Shown: positions 6,911 through 15,471 of the stretch, in pieces | Layout of the letters: each line of letters starts with the position of its first letter | Position numbering within the stretch: position 1 is the stretch's first letter | Virus record (IMG/VR): IMGVR_UViG_3300017814_000184 | Length of the DNA stretch: 21,351 nt | Reading direction: 5' to 3' (one strand) | DNA from: a virus | Notes under the pieces: model-generated | Database searches by the model: none | What the model saw: only the letters and a program-made list of their open reading frames with translations | What the model was told of the DNA's origin: nothing | Made by a program: the position numbers and the translations under genes

Positions 6911-8503
6911 TCAGAAAACGAGGATGCCGCGCTCATCGTAAACGCTGGTGGTATCGCCGCCGTTGCGAATGCAGCGGTCAAGCCCCATGATGAGAGCCAC
7001 AATGCCATCAATCTTCTCCACGGATTTTGCCTTGGTGGGCTTGATGTTACCCGCCGGGTCTTGCTCCATGACGATGTTCTGCGCCATCCACTTGAGGACG
7101 GGGTTGCCACCGTGGTTGATGTTGCCCTCCATGAGCAGCTTGTACAATTCCTTGGACGGCGGGGACATATCCTTGAATCCCTGCCCGAAGGGAACCATCG
7201 TGAAGCCCATGTCCTCAAGGTTCTGCACCATCTGTGTGGCATTCCAGCGGTCATAGGCAATTTCTTTGATGTGGTAGGTTTCGCCGAGGTGTTCTATGAA
7301 CTTCTCAATGAAACCGTAGTGGATCACATTGCCCTCGGTGGTTTGGATGAAGCCCTGCTTCTCCCACACATCGTAAAGCACATGGTCGCGGCGGCACCGC
7401 AGCTCCAGCGTTTCCTCCGGGAGCCAAAAGAACGGAAGCACGATGTACTTCTCATCTTCTGCCCTGGGCGGGAACACCAGCACCAGCGCCGTAATATCGG
7501 AAGTGGAGGAAAGGTCGAGCCCTGCGTAACAGTCCCGACCTGCCAGCGAAGGAATATCAATGGGGAGATTGCCCCGCTCGTAGATATGCTCCGGTATCCA
7601 TACCACGGTAGAGTTCGTCCAAATATTCAAACGAAGCTGTTTGAACACATTTTCCTCTGCGGGGTTTTCCAGGGCATTCTTGTAGGCTTCTCGGACACGG
7701 TCAATGGCAATGGTGTGTCCCAGGGAGGGGTTGGCTTTGTACCAGTTGGCTTCGTCATTCCAGTCATCGGCATCGGTCAGCCCATAGACCACTGGGTAGA
7801 AAGACACATCCTTTTTTCGACCCGCCGTGATGTCCAGCGCCTTGGTGTGGAGTTCATAGCAGATGGACTGCTTATCCGTGCCAGCTGTGGTGATGATGAA
7901 AAACAGCGGTTGCTCACGGGCATCGCCAGAGCCTTTGGTAAGGACATCGTACAGCTTGCGGTTCGGCTGGGCGTGGATCTCATCAAACACCAAACCGGAC
8001 ACATTCAAGCCATGCTTGGTGCCTGTTTCGGCAGAAAGCACCTGGTAGAACCCGGCGTTGGAGTAGTTAACGATGCGCTTGGTGGCTGCGGTGATCTTCG
8101 ACCGCTTGCACAGTGCCGGGGACATCTGCACCATCTGCTTGGCAACATCGAAAACGATGGATGCCTGGTTCCGGTCGCAAGCTGCGCCGTAGACTTCGGC
8201 GCTGGCCTCGCCATCGGCGTACAGAAGATATAGCGCAATCGCCGCAGCCAATTCCGACTTGCCCTGTTTCTTGGGGATTTCCACATAGGCGGTGAGGAAC
8301 TGGCGCTTGCCATCGGCTTTTACGATGCCGAAGATGTCACGGATGATTTGCTCCTGCCAGGGCAAAAGCAAAAACCGCTTGCCAGCCCATTTGCCTTTGG
8401 TGTGGCAGAGGTTTTGGATAAAGGCGACCGCTCGGTCTGCCTTGGCTTTGTCGTAACGGGAGGTGGGCAGCATAAAGGGCGAAGGGGTGTACTGATATGC
8501 CAT
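6911..8503 (-). CDS. terL: Terminase large subunit
   Basis: LLPWQ adenine-binding motif, Walker A IPKKQGKS, Walker B VFDEIH, nuclease GLDLS and KIDG motifs. Confidence 0.96.
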   Translation of the reverse strand: MAYQYTPSPFMLPTSRYDKAKADRAVAFIQNLCHTKGKWAGKRFLLLPWQEQIIRDIFGIVKADGKRQFLTAYVEIPKKQGKSELAAAIALYLLYADGEASAEVYGAACDRNQASIVFDVAKQMVQMSPALCKRSKITAATKRIVNYSNAGFYQVLSAETGTKHGLNVSGLVFDEIHAQPNRKLYDVLTKGSGDAREQPLFFIITTAGTDKQSICYELHTKALDITAGRKKDVSFYPVVYGLTDADDWNDEANWYKANPSLGHTIAIDRVREAYKNALENPAEENVFKQLRLNIWTNSTVVWIPEHIYERGNLPIDIPSLAGRDCYAGLDLSSTSDITALVLVFPPRAEDEKYIVLPFFWLPEETLELRCRRDHVLYDVWEKQGFIQTTEGNVIHYGFIEKFIEHLGETYHIKEIAYDRWNATQMVQNLEDMGFTMVPFGQGFKDMSPPSKELYKLLMEGNINHGGNPVLKWMAQNIVMEQDPAGNIKPTKAKSVEKIDGIVALIMGLDRCIRNGGDTTSVYDERGILVF

Positions 8504-8979
8504 TATCCATCCTCACCACCCAGCAACCGCTCCATCTCATCTGTGGGGTCGGGCACACCATCACCTCCAATGATGCGGCTCCGGGCAGACGGGGTCAGAC
8601 CGAACTGCTCACAGAACTTCAGCATGATTTTCAGATTGGTCTGGGCGATGCTGACTTGCGGTACCTGTTGCAGATAGCCATTGGGCGTTCGCACCATCGT
8701 GCCGTGCTGGGTGATGAACTCCTCCGCTTCCTTCCACCGTGCGTAAGCCTGGCAGTACCCGGCGAAAGCAGCCATATCCATTTCGGTGAGAAGCCCCATC
8801 TGCTCCAACACCTTGCCCATGCGCTTCCACTCTTTCTTGGCTTCGTCCTCCAGCCACCCAGGGCAGCGGGGCGCTTTCTTTGCGGGTTGCGGCTCATTGG
8901 GATTCAGCGGCCGACCGCCGGGGTTGCCTTCCAGCACTTTGAGCGCGGTCGGCTTGGGTTTTCTTCCTCTCTGCGCCAT
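8503..8979 (-). CDS. terS: Terminase small subunit, P27 family
   Basis: RGRKPKPTALKVLEGNPG and FGLTPSARSRI motifs; ATG at 8979 after AGGAGG. Confidence 0.93.
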   Translation of the reverse strand: MAQRGRKPKPTALKVLEGNPGGRPLNPNEPQPAKKAPRCPGWLEDEAKKEWKRMGKVLEQMGLLTEMDMAAFAGYCQAYARWKEAEEFITQHGTMVRTPNGYLQQVPQVSIAQTNLKIMLKFCEQFGLTPSARSRIIGGDGVPDPTDEMERLLGGEDG

Positions 8980-12441: not shown

Positions 12442-13761
12442 TTATTCTTGGGCTGCGGAAACTATTTTTTTGCCGATGGCATAGACCACATTTACCGTCA
12501 CGCCGTTGCCAGCCTGCTTGTAAAGCTGGGCATCGGAATTGACTGCTGCCGCATTGGCAAAGAGGGTGTCGGTAAAGCCTTGCAGCCGGAAGCACTCCTT
12601 GGGGGTGAGTCTGCGGATGCGGACCAGCTTGCCGTTCCACACCACGACACCGACAGCCCCGGAGCAGGAAAGCGCATGGGCAAAGCCCTGCCCGACTCTT
12701 GCCCGGCGGGTGGAGGAATTGGGATAGGCCAAATCTACGGAGTCGCCAGGTCGAGCGGTTTCGTACCCTTGCTTGGTTGCGGAGCGGAGATCGATGGCGG
12801 GGGTGTCCTCGCCGACCTCCAACATCACACCGTGCCGGTCCTGGCTGGTGAGGGTGAACATCGGCTCGTCTGCCTCTTTCATCCTGCGACCGTTCTGCCT
12901 TTTCTCAAGGCGGTCGGGGGTCAAGACCGGGTAGGCTTTGCGGTGCTGCTCCTGGGTTTCTTCGCCAACCTCCAACACACCACTGTTCTGCGCGGTATGC
13001 CGCACCACCCCGGCGTTGTACCGGGCAGTGAGGCAACGGGCGGTATCGGTGATTTTGGGAGCAACGGCGTTCTGGTCAATCAGATACAGCCCGGTCTTGG
13101 CGCCCATGCCACCGGCCTCGCTTGCCAGGGTGGCGGAGATGCCAGAGGGGTCGTAGACCCGGTAACCCTGGGAGCCGCCTATAATCTGCTTAAGATTTCC
13201 ACAGCTTTCTGGGCTGACAGGTAATACTTCTCGTCCACCTCGGCATCTAAGATGTCCGACAGTGTACACTCGCTCTCTGTTTTGGGGGACTCCGTAATCT
13301 TTAGAGTTGAAAATCTGCCACTGGACATCGTACCCAGCTTCGGCCAACTCACAGAGATAATCGAGGAAGTCCCATCCGGCATGGCTGCTGAGAAGTCCTT
13401 TAACATTTTCGAGGATAACCCATTCGGGTCGATCTTCTTCTTTTTTGCCTTTGAGGAGGTCAACGAAGTCAAAAAAGAGTCCACTTCGGTCTCCGTGTAT
13501 TCCGGCTCGTCCTCCCGCAATCGAGACATTCTGACAAGGCGACCCAGCAGTCCATACATCTGCGTGAGGAATGTCATCTGGTCGGATTGCTGTGATGTCA
13601 TCTCCATACCATTCTCCTTCCGTATCGTACATGGCACGGTACGACCGCGCCGCAAATTTATCCTTTTCGCAAAAGCCGACACACCTCATGCCAGCCAGTT
13701 CCAGCCCCTGGCGAAAGCCGCCAATGCCAGAGAAAAAATCAATGAAGGTCATCTGCGCCAT
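12442..13761 (-). CDS. DNA (cytosine-5)-methyltransferase
   Basis: Motifs I FSGIGG, IV GSPCQ, VI ENVKG, VIII QNRERVY, IX RRLTPKECFRLQGF and X YKQAGNGV; long variable region. Confidence 0.95.
   Translation of the reverse strand: MAQMTFIDFFSGIGGFRQGLELAGMRCVGFCEKDKFAARSYRAMYDTEGEWYGDDITAIRPDDIPHADVWTAGSPCQNVSIAGGRAGIHGDRSGLFFDFVDLLKGKKEEDRPEWVILENVKGLLSSHAGWDFLDYLCELAEAGYDVQWQIFNSKDYGVPQNRERVYTVGHLRCRGGREVLPVSPESCGNLKQIIGGSQGYRVYDPSGISATLASEAGGMGAKTGLYLIDQNAVAPKITDTARCLTARYNAGVVRHTAQNSGVLEVGEETQEQHRKAYPVLTPDRLEKRQNGRRMKEADEPMFTLTSQDRHGVMLEVGEDTPAIDLRSATKQGYETARPGDSVDLAYPNSSTRRARVGQGFAHALSCSGAVGVVVWNGKLVRIRRLTPKECFRLQGFTDTLFANAAAVNSDAQLYKQAGNGVTVNVVYAIGKKIVSAAQE
13179..13607 (-). CDS. Nested alternative-frame gene; candidate C5-MTase beta-subunit-like polypeptide (142 aa)
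   Basis: AAGGAG RBS (13614-13619) 6 nt before the ATG at 13607; ends in CTLSDILDAEVDEKYYLS, a segment normally found after motif VIII of C5-MTases. Confidence 0.65.
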   Translation of the reverse strand: MEMTSQQSDQMTFLTQMYGLLGRLVRMSRLREDEPEYTETEVDSFLTSLTSSKAKKKKIDPNGLSSKMLKDFSAAMPDGTSSIISVSWPKLGTMSSGRFSTLKITESPKTESECTLSDILDAEVDEKYYLSAQKAVEILSRL

Positions 13762-14995
13762 CAGTGGTCACCTCCGTGTACGGTTTCTGGATCCCGTCCC
13801 GCAGCACAAACACACCCTCGCTGGAACCGACCGACTCCACATACCGCTTGACGATGACATCCACAAACTTGGGGTCAAGTTCAATGCCATAGCAGATGCG
13901 GCCGGTTTCCTCACAGGCAATGAGCGTAGAGCCGGAGCCGAGGAACGGGTCCAGCACAATGCAGTTGCTCATGGAGGAGTTCTGAATGGGATAAGCCATC
14001 AGAGCCACGGGCTTCATGGTAGGGTGGTCTTTGGATGCCTTGGGGCGGTCATATTCCCAAATGGTGGTCTGCTTGCGGTCGGAGTACCACTGGTGCTTGC
14101 CGCCGATTTTCCACCCGAAAAGGCAAGGCTCATGCTGCCACTGATACGGAGAGCGCCCCAACACCAGCGCGTTCTTTTTCCAAATGCAGCACCCGGAAAG
14201 GTAGAATCCGGCATCGTGGAACGCCTGTCGGAAAATGAGGCCCTTGGTATCAGCATGGAACACATAAATGGAAGCATCCTGCTCCATCTGCTGCTCCACA
14301 TTCACGAACATGGCGAACAGGAACTTATAGAAGTCCTCGTCCGGCATATTGTCGTTTTGGATTTTTCCGGCGGTTTCCTGCACATTCACATTGTAGGGCG
14401 GGTCGGTCACCACCAGATTGGCGCGGTTGCCGTTCATCAGCGTGGCGTAGGTGTCGGGCAAGGTGGAGTCGCCGCAGATCAGCCGATGCCGACCAAGCAG
14501 CCACACATCACCGGAGCGGGACATGGTGGGCTTTTGCAGCTCGGCATCCACATCAAAGTCATCCTCCTGGATTTCCTTGTTGTGTACCTTGGAGAACAAC
14601 TGCTCAATCTCCGGTGCCTCGAAGCCCGTGAAATCGGTGTTGAACTGTGCGGTCTGCAAGTCCACGATGAGGTCAGCCAAAAGCTGCTCATTCCAGGCGC
14701 CCGTGATTTTGTTGAGGGCGATGTTCAAAGCCTTGACCTTGGTCTCATCCTCAATGTGTACGACAACGCACTGCACCTCGGTATAGCCCAGGTCTTTCAG
14801 AACCGTTAAACGCTGGTGACCGCCAATGACGGTCATGTCGTAGTTGACGATGATGGGCTCCACATAGCCAAACTCCTGGATGGAACTCTTGATTTTCTCG
14901 TATTCCTTATCTCCCGCCTTCAGCTTCTTGCGGGGGTTATAGGCAGCGGGGCGCAGCGTGTCTACCGACAGCGTTTGCCATTCCATTGCACTCAT
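13739..14995 (-). CDS. ParB-like N-terminal domain fused to N4/N6 DNA methyltransferase (beta class)
   Basis: PAAYNPRK...IGGHQRL ParB/Srx domain; DPPY (motif IV) precedes HPTMKP and DPFLGSGST (motif I); ATG at 14995 overlaps the upstream TGA, with AGGAGG RBS. Confidence 0.92.
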   Translation of the reverse strand: MSAMEWQTLSVDTLRPAAYNPRKKLKAGDKEYEKIKSSIQEFGYVEPIIVNYDMTVIGGHQRLTVLKDLGYTEVQCVVVHIEDETKVKALNIALNKITGAWNEQLLADLIVDLQTAQFNTDFTGFEAPEIEQLFSKVHNKEIQEDDFDVDAELQKPTMSRSGDVWLLGRHRLICGDSTLPDTYATLMNGNRANLVVTDPPYNVNVQETAGKIQNDNMPDEDFYKFLFAMFVNVEQQMEQDASIYVFHADTKGLIFRQAFHDAGFYLSGCCIWKKNALVLGRSPYQWQHEPCLFGWKIGGKHQWYSDRKQTTIWEYDRPKASKDHPTMKPVALMAYPIQNSSMSNCIVLDPFLGSGSTLIACEETGRICYGIELDPKFVDVIVKRYVESVGSSEGVFVLRDGIQKPYTEVTTDGADDLH

Positions 14996-15471
14996 GCATT
15001 TTCCTCCTTCAATTGGGCAGGGCCGACATAAGGCTCTCTGCCATCTTCCTCCCGCCAAAACCTGTCACGGATGTAGCACTCGTGGGAGCAGTATTTTCGG
15101 TTCCTGTTTCCATAGGACAAGAAGGTCTTGCCGCACTTGGCACAGGTCAATTCGTAGTAGGCAGAGGGCTTTCGCTGGATATCCTGCTGGTGGGCAGACC
15201 ACCAATCCCGTCTGCATTTATCTGAGCAGAACTTTCGCTTGCGGCCGGTCGGCTGCTGTTGGATCTCTTTCCCGCAGCAGACACAGGCATTGCCCATCTC
15301 CATCTGCTCTTTCATGTTGACGGTAAGGACGGCGGCAAAGCCGTCCAGCCCGTGGGTCTTGCAGTAGTTGCGGACAATATCACGGGACAGCCCAACGACC
15401 GAAGCAATGGCGCGGTAACCGCCGCCTTGCAGACGAAGGTCGCGTATCTGCTTTGCTTGGAACTCTGTCAT
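14992..15471 (-). CDS. HTH plus double zinc-ribbon protein, putative regulator
   Basis: N-terminal HTH (GYRAIASVVGLSRDIVRNYC); two CxxC...[FY]CSxxC motifs; start MTEF at 15471. Confidence 0.7.
   Translation of the reverse strand: MTEFQAKQIRDLRLQGGGYRAIASVVGLSRDIVRNYCKTHGLDGFAAVLTVNMKEQMEMGNACVCCGKEIQQQPTGRKRKFCSDKCRRDWWSAHQQDIQRKPSAYYELTCAKCGKTFLSYGNRNRKYCSHECYIRDRFWREEDGREPYVGPAQLKEENA

What the first reader, a model, noticed from the sequence alone, without database searches (positions are those of the whole stretch)
13179..13619. Hidden gene nested in an alternative frame of the C5-methyltransferase: possible two-subunit, one-locus MTase
Seen: a same-strand shifted frame is open across MTase motifs I-VIII and has a strong internal RBS (AAGGAG-6 nt-ATG at 13607). 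It encodes 142 aa ending ...SWPKLGTMSSGRFSTLKITESPKTESECTLSDILDAEVDEKYYLSAQKAVEILSRL. L.DIL...V.EKYYLS is a segment ordinary C5-MTases carry in their own frame after motif VIII; here the main frame reads GHLRCRGGREVLPV over the same bases. Known: M.EcoHK31I needs a beta polypeptide encoded in an alternative frame inside its alpha gene, and from memory this ORF resembles that beta chain (unverified). Inference: the phage enzyme is a heterodimer from overlapping frames even though the main ORF keeps motifs IX and X, so the beta chain may supply a missing structural element or regulate activity.
Basis: partly seen in the sequence, partly recalled or inferred. Interest (0 to 1): 0.85.

Follow-up and report, generated by a model that had tools for sequence, protein, structure and literature searches.

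The report
Hidden partner gene inside phage methyltransferase
A second, conserved 142-codon gene is read one base out of step inside this phage's DNA cytosine-methyltransferase gene. It encodes the enzyme segment that the main protein has lost, so it is most likely a small partner subunit. Relatives of it have been noticed in a few phage annotations but never explained.

Summary
Window 13179-13607 (minus strand) is a 142-codon ORF in the +1 frame of the C5-MTase gene (12442-13761), with AAGGAG six bases before its ATG.

It is not a chance open frame.
- In 72 distinct homologous genes (60-91% identical) the frame is open in 71. Synonymous shuffles predict 4.5 stops.
- The stop codon and an SD-plus-ATG are conserved.
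- Main-frame synonymous variation halves exactly between the nested start and stop (p = 8e-22).

Its last ~30 residues (segment S) are homologous to a segment that single-chain C5-MTases carry in their own frame after motif VIII. SPbeta-type enzymes and E. coli Dcm are examples. The main frame here has only a 23-residue linker at that place.

Across 182 related phage genes, S in the main frame and a nested ORF never occur together (151 nested, 27 with S in the main frame, 4 with neither, 0 with both).

A complex prediction supports binding: score 0.77, best control 0.00.

It is not an M.EcoHK31I-type beta chain, because motif IX stays in the main protein.

The same nested ORF is annotated in pneumococcal phage MM1 and remarked on for S. 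thermophilus phages. This scan has also met it on other DNA. This locus is therefore a new member of a known but uncharacterised kind.

The parts
12442..13761 (-). Main C5 cytosine DNA methyltransferase gene, 439 aa. It holds motifs I-X, but only a 23-residue linker between motif VIII and the GGxQGxRVY block.
   Evidence: PF00145 E 4e-66. Alignment to M.HhaI: query 4-168 = HhaI 12-169, 192-229 = 231-268, 381-434 = 270-319.
13179..13607 (-). Nested +1-frame gene, 142 codons plus a TAG stop. The start is ATG 13607 or the more widely conserved ATG 13601.
   Evidence: Open in 71 of 72 homologs with the stop at the same aligned place. 149 of 152 related loci have an SD-led ORF, 141 of them 139-149 aa long.
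13614..13619 (-). Shine-Dalgarno AAGGAG of the nested gene, encoded inside main-frame T-E-G-E-W.
   Evidence: AAGGAG or AAAGGAG, with an in-frame ATG 6-12 nt downstream, is present in nearly all of the distinct homolog sequences printed; two have GAGGGAG or GAAGGTG.
13182..13271 (-). Segment S (nested residues ~113-142, LSDIL..VDEKYYLS..IL). It is the part homologous to the post-motif-VIII segment of single-chain C5-MTases, and it has the strongest dual-coding constraint.
   Evidence: Synonymous entropy 0.11 at main codons 171-190. An S profile hits the main frame of an SPbeta-type MTase at iE 2e-9. hhalign places it at E. coli Dcm 294-332. It is the only confident part of the lone fold, pLDDT 72-92.
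13317..13367 (-). Predicted docking strands (nested residues 81-97, with near-invariant W88, G92, G97). In the model they pair with main-chain residues 124-150 (the motif VI-VII region).
   Evidence: The lowest-error contacts are main 146-150 with nested 90-94. Conserved columns are listed. A like W/F-P-x-SGM module opens the beta ORFs of split actinophage MTases.

Best explanation
The locus encodes a two-chain C5 DNA methyltransferase from one stretch of DNA. The 439-aa main chain carries all ten catalytic motifs. It lacks the segment (here called S, preceded by a short strand) that single-chain enzymes have between motif VIII and the target-recognition region. Ribosomes that start at the internal SD and ATG (13619/13607) read the +1 frame and make a 142-aa chain. 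Its middle (residues ~81-97) adds strands onto the motif VI-VII region of the catalytic domain. Its C-terminal ~30 residues (S) pack against the motif IX region and complete the small domain in trans. Shown: the ORF, SD, ATG and stop are conserved; selection acts on the second frame; S is homologous to the in-frame segment of other C5-MTases and is distributed either/or with it. Inferred: translation, binding, and need for activity. The nested gene probably arose after an ancestral split of the enzyme, its upstream part overprinted on the catalytic domain.
For: (1) The open frame is conserved. There are no +1 stops in 71 of 72 distinct homologs, against 4.5 expected from synonymous shuffles. 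The same frame has 3.1 stops in the first 51 codons and 5.0 per 100 codons downstream. (2) Main-frame synonymous codon entropy is 0.67 before the nested ORF, 0.36 inside it and 0.74 after it (Mann-Whitney p 8e-22). Third-position entropy is 1.16-1.37 outside and 0.68 inside, falling to 0.50 in the last third. (3) The SD and in-frame ATG are conserved. (4) For distant homologs (main-frame identity 51-56% in the region), nested-protein identity is 38-45%, against 18-25% expected from main-frame constraint alone (z 4-10). (5) S lies in the main frame of an SPbeta-type MTase (iE 2e-9) and aligns to E. coli Dcm 294-332 right after motif VIII. The window's main chain has 23 residues where M.HhaI has 61. 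(6) Distribution: 151 loci have the nested ORF and no S in the main frame. 27 loci have S in the main frame, no nested ORF and 2-17 +1 stops. None has both. (7) complex prediction scored 0.77 in three runs (0.77, 0.76, 0.77) with a best control of 0.00. That mark was reached by 58 of 80 solved complexes and 2 of 110 mismatched pairs. The runs share at least 65% of contacts and partner pLDDT is at least 74, against 59 for the lone fold. (8) Split actinophage MTases have a +1-frame beta ORF that begins with the same docking-like module.
Against: There is no evidence of translation or of a peptide. The metagenome runs gave no verdict on expression. The nested protein has no Pfam or PDB sequence match and folds poorly alone (pLDDT 59, pTM 0.26). 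The main chain keeps all ten motifs and might be active alone. The complex pass may lean on the model's memory of single-chain MTase structures in which S is in cis, and my own alignments were used, so the calibration holds only roughly. The either/or pattern counts related genes, not independent events. Four related MTases had neither S nor a nested ORF by my thresholds, so S is not universal. The N-terminal ~35 residues are weakly conserved and predicted disordered.
Confidence: 0.7

Rival explanations
1. The nested protein is real and binds the methyltransferase, but as a dispensable regulator rather than a structural subunit. It could tune activity, specificity or timing, or tether the enzyme to DNA through its basic KAKKKK patch.
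For: The main chain has all ten motifs. The N-terminal two thirds of the nested protein have no counterpart in single-chain enzymes and include a conserved basic stretch. Metagenome variants change the middle of the nested protein freely: 16 of 32 variants are silent in the main frame and non-silent in the nested frame.
Against: S is homologous to an integral segment of single-chain enzymes and is never present in both forms. That pattern fits replacement better than regulation.
Confidence: 0.15
2. The nested gene is real, but its function has nothing to do with methylation, for example anti-defence or host takeover. The C-terminal likeness to MTase sequence would then be a relic of how it arose.
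For: No family match. Overprinted viral genes often gain unrelated accessory roles (general knowledge; review PMC8227390 listed, not read).
Against: The relic-like S part is the most constrained stretch of the whole overlap. The complex prediction passes all controls. The either/or distribution with in-frame S also argues against it.
Confidence: 0.07
3. The frame is not translated from its own start. Either the constraint is at the RNA or DNA level, or S is reached by ribosomal frameshifting from the main frame after motif VIII.
For: No translation data. A related clade carries a poly-G tract that shifts both frames.
Against: The open frame extends ~110 codons upstream of S, with a conserved SD and ATG. 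The constraint has codon-position structure: main position 3, which is nested position 2, is the one suppressed. The window has no homopolymer at that site. A frameshift into S would end at the conserved stop and lose the target-recognition domain and motifs IX and X.
Confidence: 0.04

Closest known systems
ORF13/ORF14 of Streptococcus pneumoniae phage MM1 (NC_003050.2), and genes 42/43 of S. thermophilus 5093-group phages such as P0094
   Same: A C5-MTase gene with a ~141-codon ORF nested in the +1 frame at the same place, starting 151 nt after the main start (154 nt here). The nested-family profile hits MM1 ORF14 at iE 7e-43. McDonnell et al. 2017 (PMC5601072) remark on the 'apparent total overlap ... 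in different reading frames' and cite the same for MM1 and for Tn5252.
   Different: Those records only annotate or remark on the overlap. Both ORFs are simply labelled methyltransferase. I found no account of function, selection or partnership. The window's copy is about 40-50% identical over the part that aligned (residues 88-139 to MM1) and sits in a higher-GC phage.
M.EcoHK31I alpha/beta (as described in PMC2836561)
   Same: A C5-MTase whose small chain is encoded entirely in another frame inside the large chain's gene. Both chains are needed there.
   Different: There the beta chain carries motif IX and the alpha chain lacks it. Here motif IX (RRLTPKECFRLQGF) is in the main chain, and the nested chain carries the post-motif-VIII segment instead. 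Sequence likeness was not tested.
Single-chain C5-MTases with segment S in cis: SPbeta-type phage MTase (OQ921343.1) and E. coli Dcm
   Same: The same catalytic motifs. S (LREILEEYVDEKYYLSEEKT in SPbeta; TLAQLLDPMVEAKYILTP in Dcm) lies between motif VIII and the recognition region.
   Different: S is in the main frame and the +1 frame is full of stops.
Split actinophage C5-MTases (Mycobacterium phages PeterPeter gp79/gp78 and Vagabond gp6/gp5; Streptomyces phage Sebastisaurus gp34/gp35)
   Same: The second chain is read in the +1 frame, overlaps the end of the catalytic-domain gene, and begins with a W/F-P-x-SGM module like nested residues 84-97.
   Different: There the +1 frame runs on into the recognition domain and motifs IX-X, so the enzyme is truly split. 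Here the main frame continues and the nested frame stops after S.

Membership tests
Nested +1-frame ORF of phage and mobile-element C5-MTases (MM1 ORF14 type) | Same-strand ORF of ~140 codons in the +1 frame, from just before motif IV to just after motif VIII | tested here: met
   The MM1 and P0094 annotations show the same geometry.
Nested +1-frame ORF of phage and mobile-element C5-MTases (MM1 ORF14 type) | Sequence homology of the nested product to MM1 ORF14 | tested here: met
   tblastn of P0001 against MM1 gave E 5e-8. The family profile that includes the window's protein hits MM1 ORF14 at iE 7e-43.
Nested +1-frame ORF of phage and mobile-element C5-MTases (MM1 ORF14 type) | Own ribosome-binding site and start codon inside the main gene | tested here: met
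   AAGGAG, 6 nt, then ATG. An SD-led ATG was found in 149 of 152 related loci.
M.EcoHK31I-type alpha/beta C5-MTase | Small chain encoded wholly in another frame inside the large chain's gene | tested here: met
M.EcoHK31I-type alpha/beta C5-MTase | Small chain supplies motif IX, which the large chain lacks (PMC2836561) | tested here: not met
   Main residues 381-434 align to M.HhaI 270-319, which covers motifs IX-X. The nested protein has no motif IX.
M.EcoHK31I-type alpha/beta C5-MTase | Both chains required for methylation | not testable with these tools
   Only a complex prediction was possible: score 0.77 against a best control of 0.00.
M.EcoHK31I-type alpha/beta C5-MTase | Sequence homology to the EcoHK31I beta chain | not tested
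   No EcoHK31I sequence was available from any tool, and it is not among the PDB chains searched.
C-5 cytosine DNA methyltransferase (PF00145), main frame | Pfam match above threshold with catalytic PCQ, ENV, QxRxR and motifs IX-X | tested here: met
   E 4e-66, 224 bits against a cut-off of 22. Alignment to M.HhaI.
Truly split C5-MTase (motifs I-VIII and IX-X on separate chains) | Catalytic motifs divided between two polypeptides | tested here: not met
   The main frame is continuous through motif X.

The most novel reading that the evidence does not exclude
A large clade of phage and mobile-element C5-MTases are obligate heterodimers. Their small subunit was born by overprinting the catalytic domain after an ancestral split. 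The two surfaces predicted to touch (main residues 124-150 and nested residues 81-97) are largely encoded by the same DNA read in two frames. Single-chain, split and nested forms would be three states of one evolutionary series.
Probability: 0.45. Interest if true: 0.75.

Novelty: new member of a known kind. Interest (0 to 1): 0.6.

Why it matters
If the small chain is needed, the many phage, prophage and conjugative-element cytosine methyltransferases of this type are mis-annotated as single-gene enzymes. A single-query search found the nested ORF in 229 of 1315 phage records that carry a C5-MTase domain. Cloning only the annotated protein, or recoding the gene by codon optimisation, would silently destroy the partner. 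The locus is also a clear bacterial-virus case of long same-strand dual coding. It has a readable origin (an enzyme segment moved to another frame) and a directly testable function, both of which are rare for overlapping genes. Finally, it gives a natural two-part C5-MTase different from M.EcoHK31I, which is the kind of scaffold used for split-enzyme targeted methylation.

Tried and rejected
- **Family and structure searches of the nested protein.** Pfam, and PDB sequence searches with both the single protein and the family profile, gave nothing meaningful. The best hits were a dehydrogenase and TINF2 at E 0.3-1.4.
- **Word-based search for longer proteins with residues 98-142.** None found. 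This was weak evidence, and HMM searches on fetched DNA later found the segment in SPbeta-type enzymes.
- **Fold of the nested protein alone.** pLDDT 58.9 and pTM 0.26, too poor for a fold search, so none was run.
- **The look-up of encoding contigs.** The DNA behind the long 'fused' proteins (P0023, P0088, P0128 and others) could not be read directly. Relatives fetched instead suggest that such fusions come from 1-nt frame changes, many at a poly-G tract.
- **Whole-genome searches.** No genome is held for this window.
- **Sequencing runs.** The stretch is in wastewater, bioreactor and electrolysis-cell metagenomes. Only contigs could be laid, and RNA-labelled runs covered small parts, so there is no verdict on expression. 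None of 32 variants in the nested region makes a stop, which is a weak test.
- **Papers.** The MM1 paper (Obregon 2003, tried by DOI and by PMC151507) was not held, and I had no identifier to request the Tn5252 paper. I rely on PMC5601072 for what they report. Literature searches for a functional study of the nested gene found none.
- **Mosaic-gene idea.** I considered that the lower GC of 13180-13760 (~50% against ~62%) marks a mosaic junction. Frozen composition under dual coding explains it as well. This was not resolved.
- **An early bug.** A first version of the either/or script counted stops over the whole gene. It was corrected.

Full report
**What is there**

The minus strand of window 12442-13761 encodes a 439-aa C5 cytosine DNA methyltransferase (PF00145, E 4e-66). 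Inside it, one base out of step (+1), lies an ORF. From stop to stop it runs from main codon 26. From ATG 13607 it gives a 142-aa product that ends at TAG 13181-13179. AAGGAG sits at 13619-13614, six bases before that ATG, and a second in-frame ATG is at 13601. Only 'open across motifs I-VIII' is overstated. The frame covers motifs IV-VIII, not motif I.

**Is it more than chance?**

I fetched 80 viral contigs that encode relatives 60-91% identical to the main protein and threaded their codons onto a protein alignment.

- *Open frame.* The +1 frame is open over the 144 aligned codons in 71 of 72 distinct genes, and its stop falls at the same aligned place. The +2 frame has 8-18 stops.
- *Shuffle control.* Shuffling synonymous codons within each gene predicts 4.5 +1 stops in the region, and only 0.4% of shuffles give none. 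Outside the region the same frame has 3.1 stops in the first 51 codons and 5.0 per 100 codons downstream.
- *Synonymous variation.* Main-frame synonymous codon entropy is 0.67 before the nested ORF, 0.36 inside it and 0.74 after it (p 8e-22). The minima are at codons 91-110 and 171-190.
- *Codon positions.* The loss is at main-frame third positions, which are nested second positions: 1.16-1.37 bits outside, 0.68 inside and 0.50 in the last third.
- *Start signals.* An AAGGAG or AAAGGAG motif followed by an in-frame ATG 6-12 nt later is present in nearly all homologs (two have GAGGGAG or GAAGGTG), although the exact ATG slides by one to three codons.
- *More distant relatives.* In a second, more distant set (about 48% identical catalytic domains), 66 of 80 loci keep the same nested arrangement. 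Over both sets, 149 of 152 loci have an SD-led ORF, and 141 of them are 139-149 codons long.
- *Protein-level conservation.* For the most distant pairs the nested proteins are 38-45% identical. Main-frame constraint alone predicts 18-25%.

This is the standard signature of a second coding frame under purifying selection.

**What the product is**

It has no Pfam family and no PDB relative by sequence, alone or as a 92-member profile. Alone it folds poorly (pLDDT 58.9). Only the last ~30 residues are confident.

Those residues, called S here, are not new sequence.

- A profile of S hits the main frame of an SPbeta-type phage MTase (LREILEEYVDEKYYLSEEKT, iE 2e-9). There it lies between motif VIII and the GGxQGxRVY block.
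- hhalign places nested residues 99-138 on E. coli Dcm 294-332, directly after motif VIII (E 0.008).

The window's main chain has only 23 residues at that place, where M.HhaI has 61. So the main frame lacks S and the nested frame supplies it.

**Either/or test**

I classified 182 related phage genes with profiles of the catalytic domain, the nested protein and S (an earlier buggy run is).

| Class | Loci | +1-frame stops over motifs IV-VIII |
|---|---|---|
| Nested ORF with S in the +1 frame, no S in the main frame | 151 | at most one |
| S in the main frame, no nested ORF | 27 | 2-17 |
| Neither | 4 | 7-9 |
| Both | 0 | - |

E. coli dcm, with S in cis, also has a stop-filled +1 frame. These genes are related, so the counts are not independent events. 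Even so, the pattern is what replacement in trans predicts.

**Does it bind?**

Complex prediction, given the two family alignments, scored 0.77, 0.76 and 0.77 with a best control of 0.00. That mark was reached by 58 of 80 solved complexes and 2 of 110 mismatched pairs. The runs agree in at least 65% of their contacts and partner pLDDT is at least 74. The model supports binding; it does not show it.

- *Contacts.* Nested residues 81-97 (near-invariant W88, G92, G97) lie against main 124-150. The lowest errors are for main 146-150 with nested 90-94, which suggests added strands. Nested residues 112-142 (S) touch main 225-241 and 369-393, which is the motif IX region.
- *Caveats.* Single-chain MTases with S in cis are solved, so the pass may partly be memory of those folds. 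My own alignments were used, so the calibration holds only roughly. The segments that touch are encoded by nearby or the same nucleotides. The alignments had different numbers of rows (33 and 92), so row-paired covariation is unlikely, but I could not check it.

**Relatives in other states**

- *Split enzymes.* Actinophage MTases annotated as two 'DNA methylase' genes (PeterPeter gp79/78, Vagabond gp6/5, Sebastisaurus gp34/35) are truly split. The second gene is in the +1 frame and overlaps the end of the first. Read from its upstream stop, it begins with a W/F-P-x-SGM module like nested residues 84-97. It then runs into PTPxAxD repeats and motifs IX-X.
- *Series.* Single-chain, split and nested forms therefore look like three states of one series. 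My inference is that the nested gene descends from a split whose second chain extended upstream over the catalytic domain.

**Comparison with the known**

M.EcoHK31I works alike, with a small chain in another frame inside the large gene and both chains needed. However, its beta chain carries motif IX (PMC2836561). Here the main chain keeps motif IX, so this locus is not of that type.

The true relatives are already in the record.

- Phage MM1 ORF14 (7631-8056) is annotated nested in ORF13 (7480-8637) in the +1 frame.
- S. thermophilus phage P0094 has the same pair.
- McDonnell et al. 2017 call the overlap 'a striking feature' and cite MM1 and Tn5252 (PMC5601072).

I found no study of its function. 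In the other records listed, only the MTase is annotated over it: 229 phage records match the nested protein, out of 1315 with a C5-MTase domain. Earlier notes of this scan report the same nested gene on other DNA in at least 23 genomes. I tested their leads on MM1 and on the 'missing segment', but not the claim about phage P1 dmt.

**Verdict**

This is a real, conserved nested gene (about 93% in my estimate). It is most likely the small subunit of a two-chain methyltransferase (about 70%). It is a new member of a kind that has been noticed but never characterised.

Noticed in passing
L081-L160, e.g. L085:2262-2275: A clade of related viral MTase genes has a poly-G tract of 5-8 bases at the codons just before motif VII (main codon ~143). 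G7 copies are mostly in frame. G8 copies, and some G6 and G7 copies (L093, L111, L118), shift both the main and the nested frame at once (13 of 80 loci). This could be phase variation or homopolymer assembly error. The window has no such tract.
   Followed up: partly
L166:1485-2189 (Paenibacillus phage Pagassa, PAGASSA_60): A 234-codon +1-frame ORF nested in this C5-MTase gene carries PTPxAxD repeats and a motif-IX-like LNPDWVECLMGFP. It has no hit to the nested-protein profile used here. It looks like a genuinely EcoHK31I-like arrangement, with motif IX in the nested chain.
   Followed up: partly
L170:1295-2495 (Mycobacterium phage Lucky2013, gp113-gp114): The enzyme appears to be in three pieces. 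gp113 holds motifs I-VIII. A nested 159-codon +1 ORF holds S followed by GILRRAAKRGRKLP. Motifs IX-X lie in the next gene, gp114, which is annotated as hypothetical.
   Followed up: partly
window 13180-13760 versus 12475-13150: GC is ~50% over the dual-coded part of the gene but ~62% in the rest. Either composition is frozen because synonymous sites are constrained, or there is a recombination junction near 13180-13220.
   Followed up: no
window 13739-15058 (-): The upstream gene is a 439-aa ParB-like domain fused to an amino-MTase (DPPY motif). It overlaps the C5-MTase start by 23 nt, so the two methyltransferases are probably translationally coupled.
   Followed up: no
window 13190-13630, runs X2 and X8: In wastewater and bioreactor metagenomes the summed contig depth is several-fold higher over the dual-coded part than over the rest of the gene, with several variant contigs. 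The conserved overlap seems to be shared by many co-occurring phages and breaks assemblies there. One contig has a compensated +1/-1 indel pair at 13386/13392.
   Followed up: no
P0128, P0139 (443 aa): These high-GC proteins join MTase motifs I-III, or a low-complexity N-terminus, to a nested-like domain followed by GILRRA..RGRILP and then motif IX. PCQ and ENV are not in frame.
   Followed up: no
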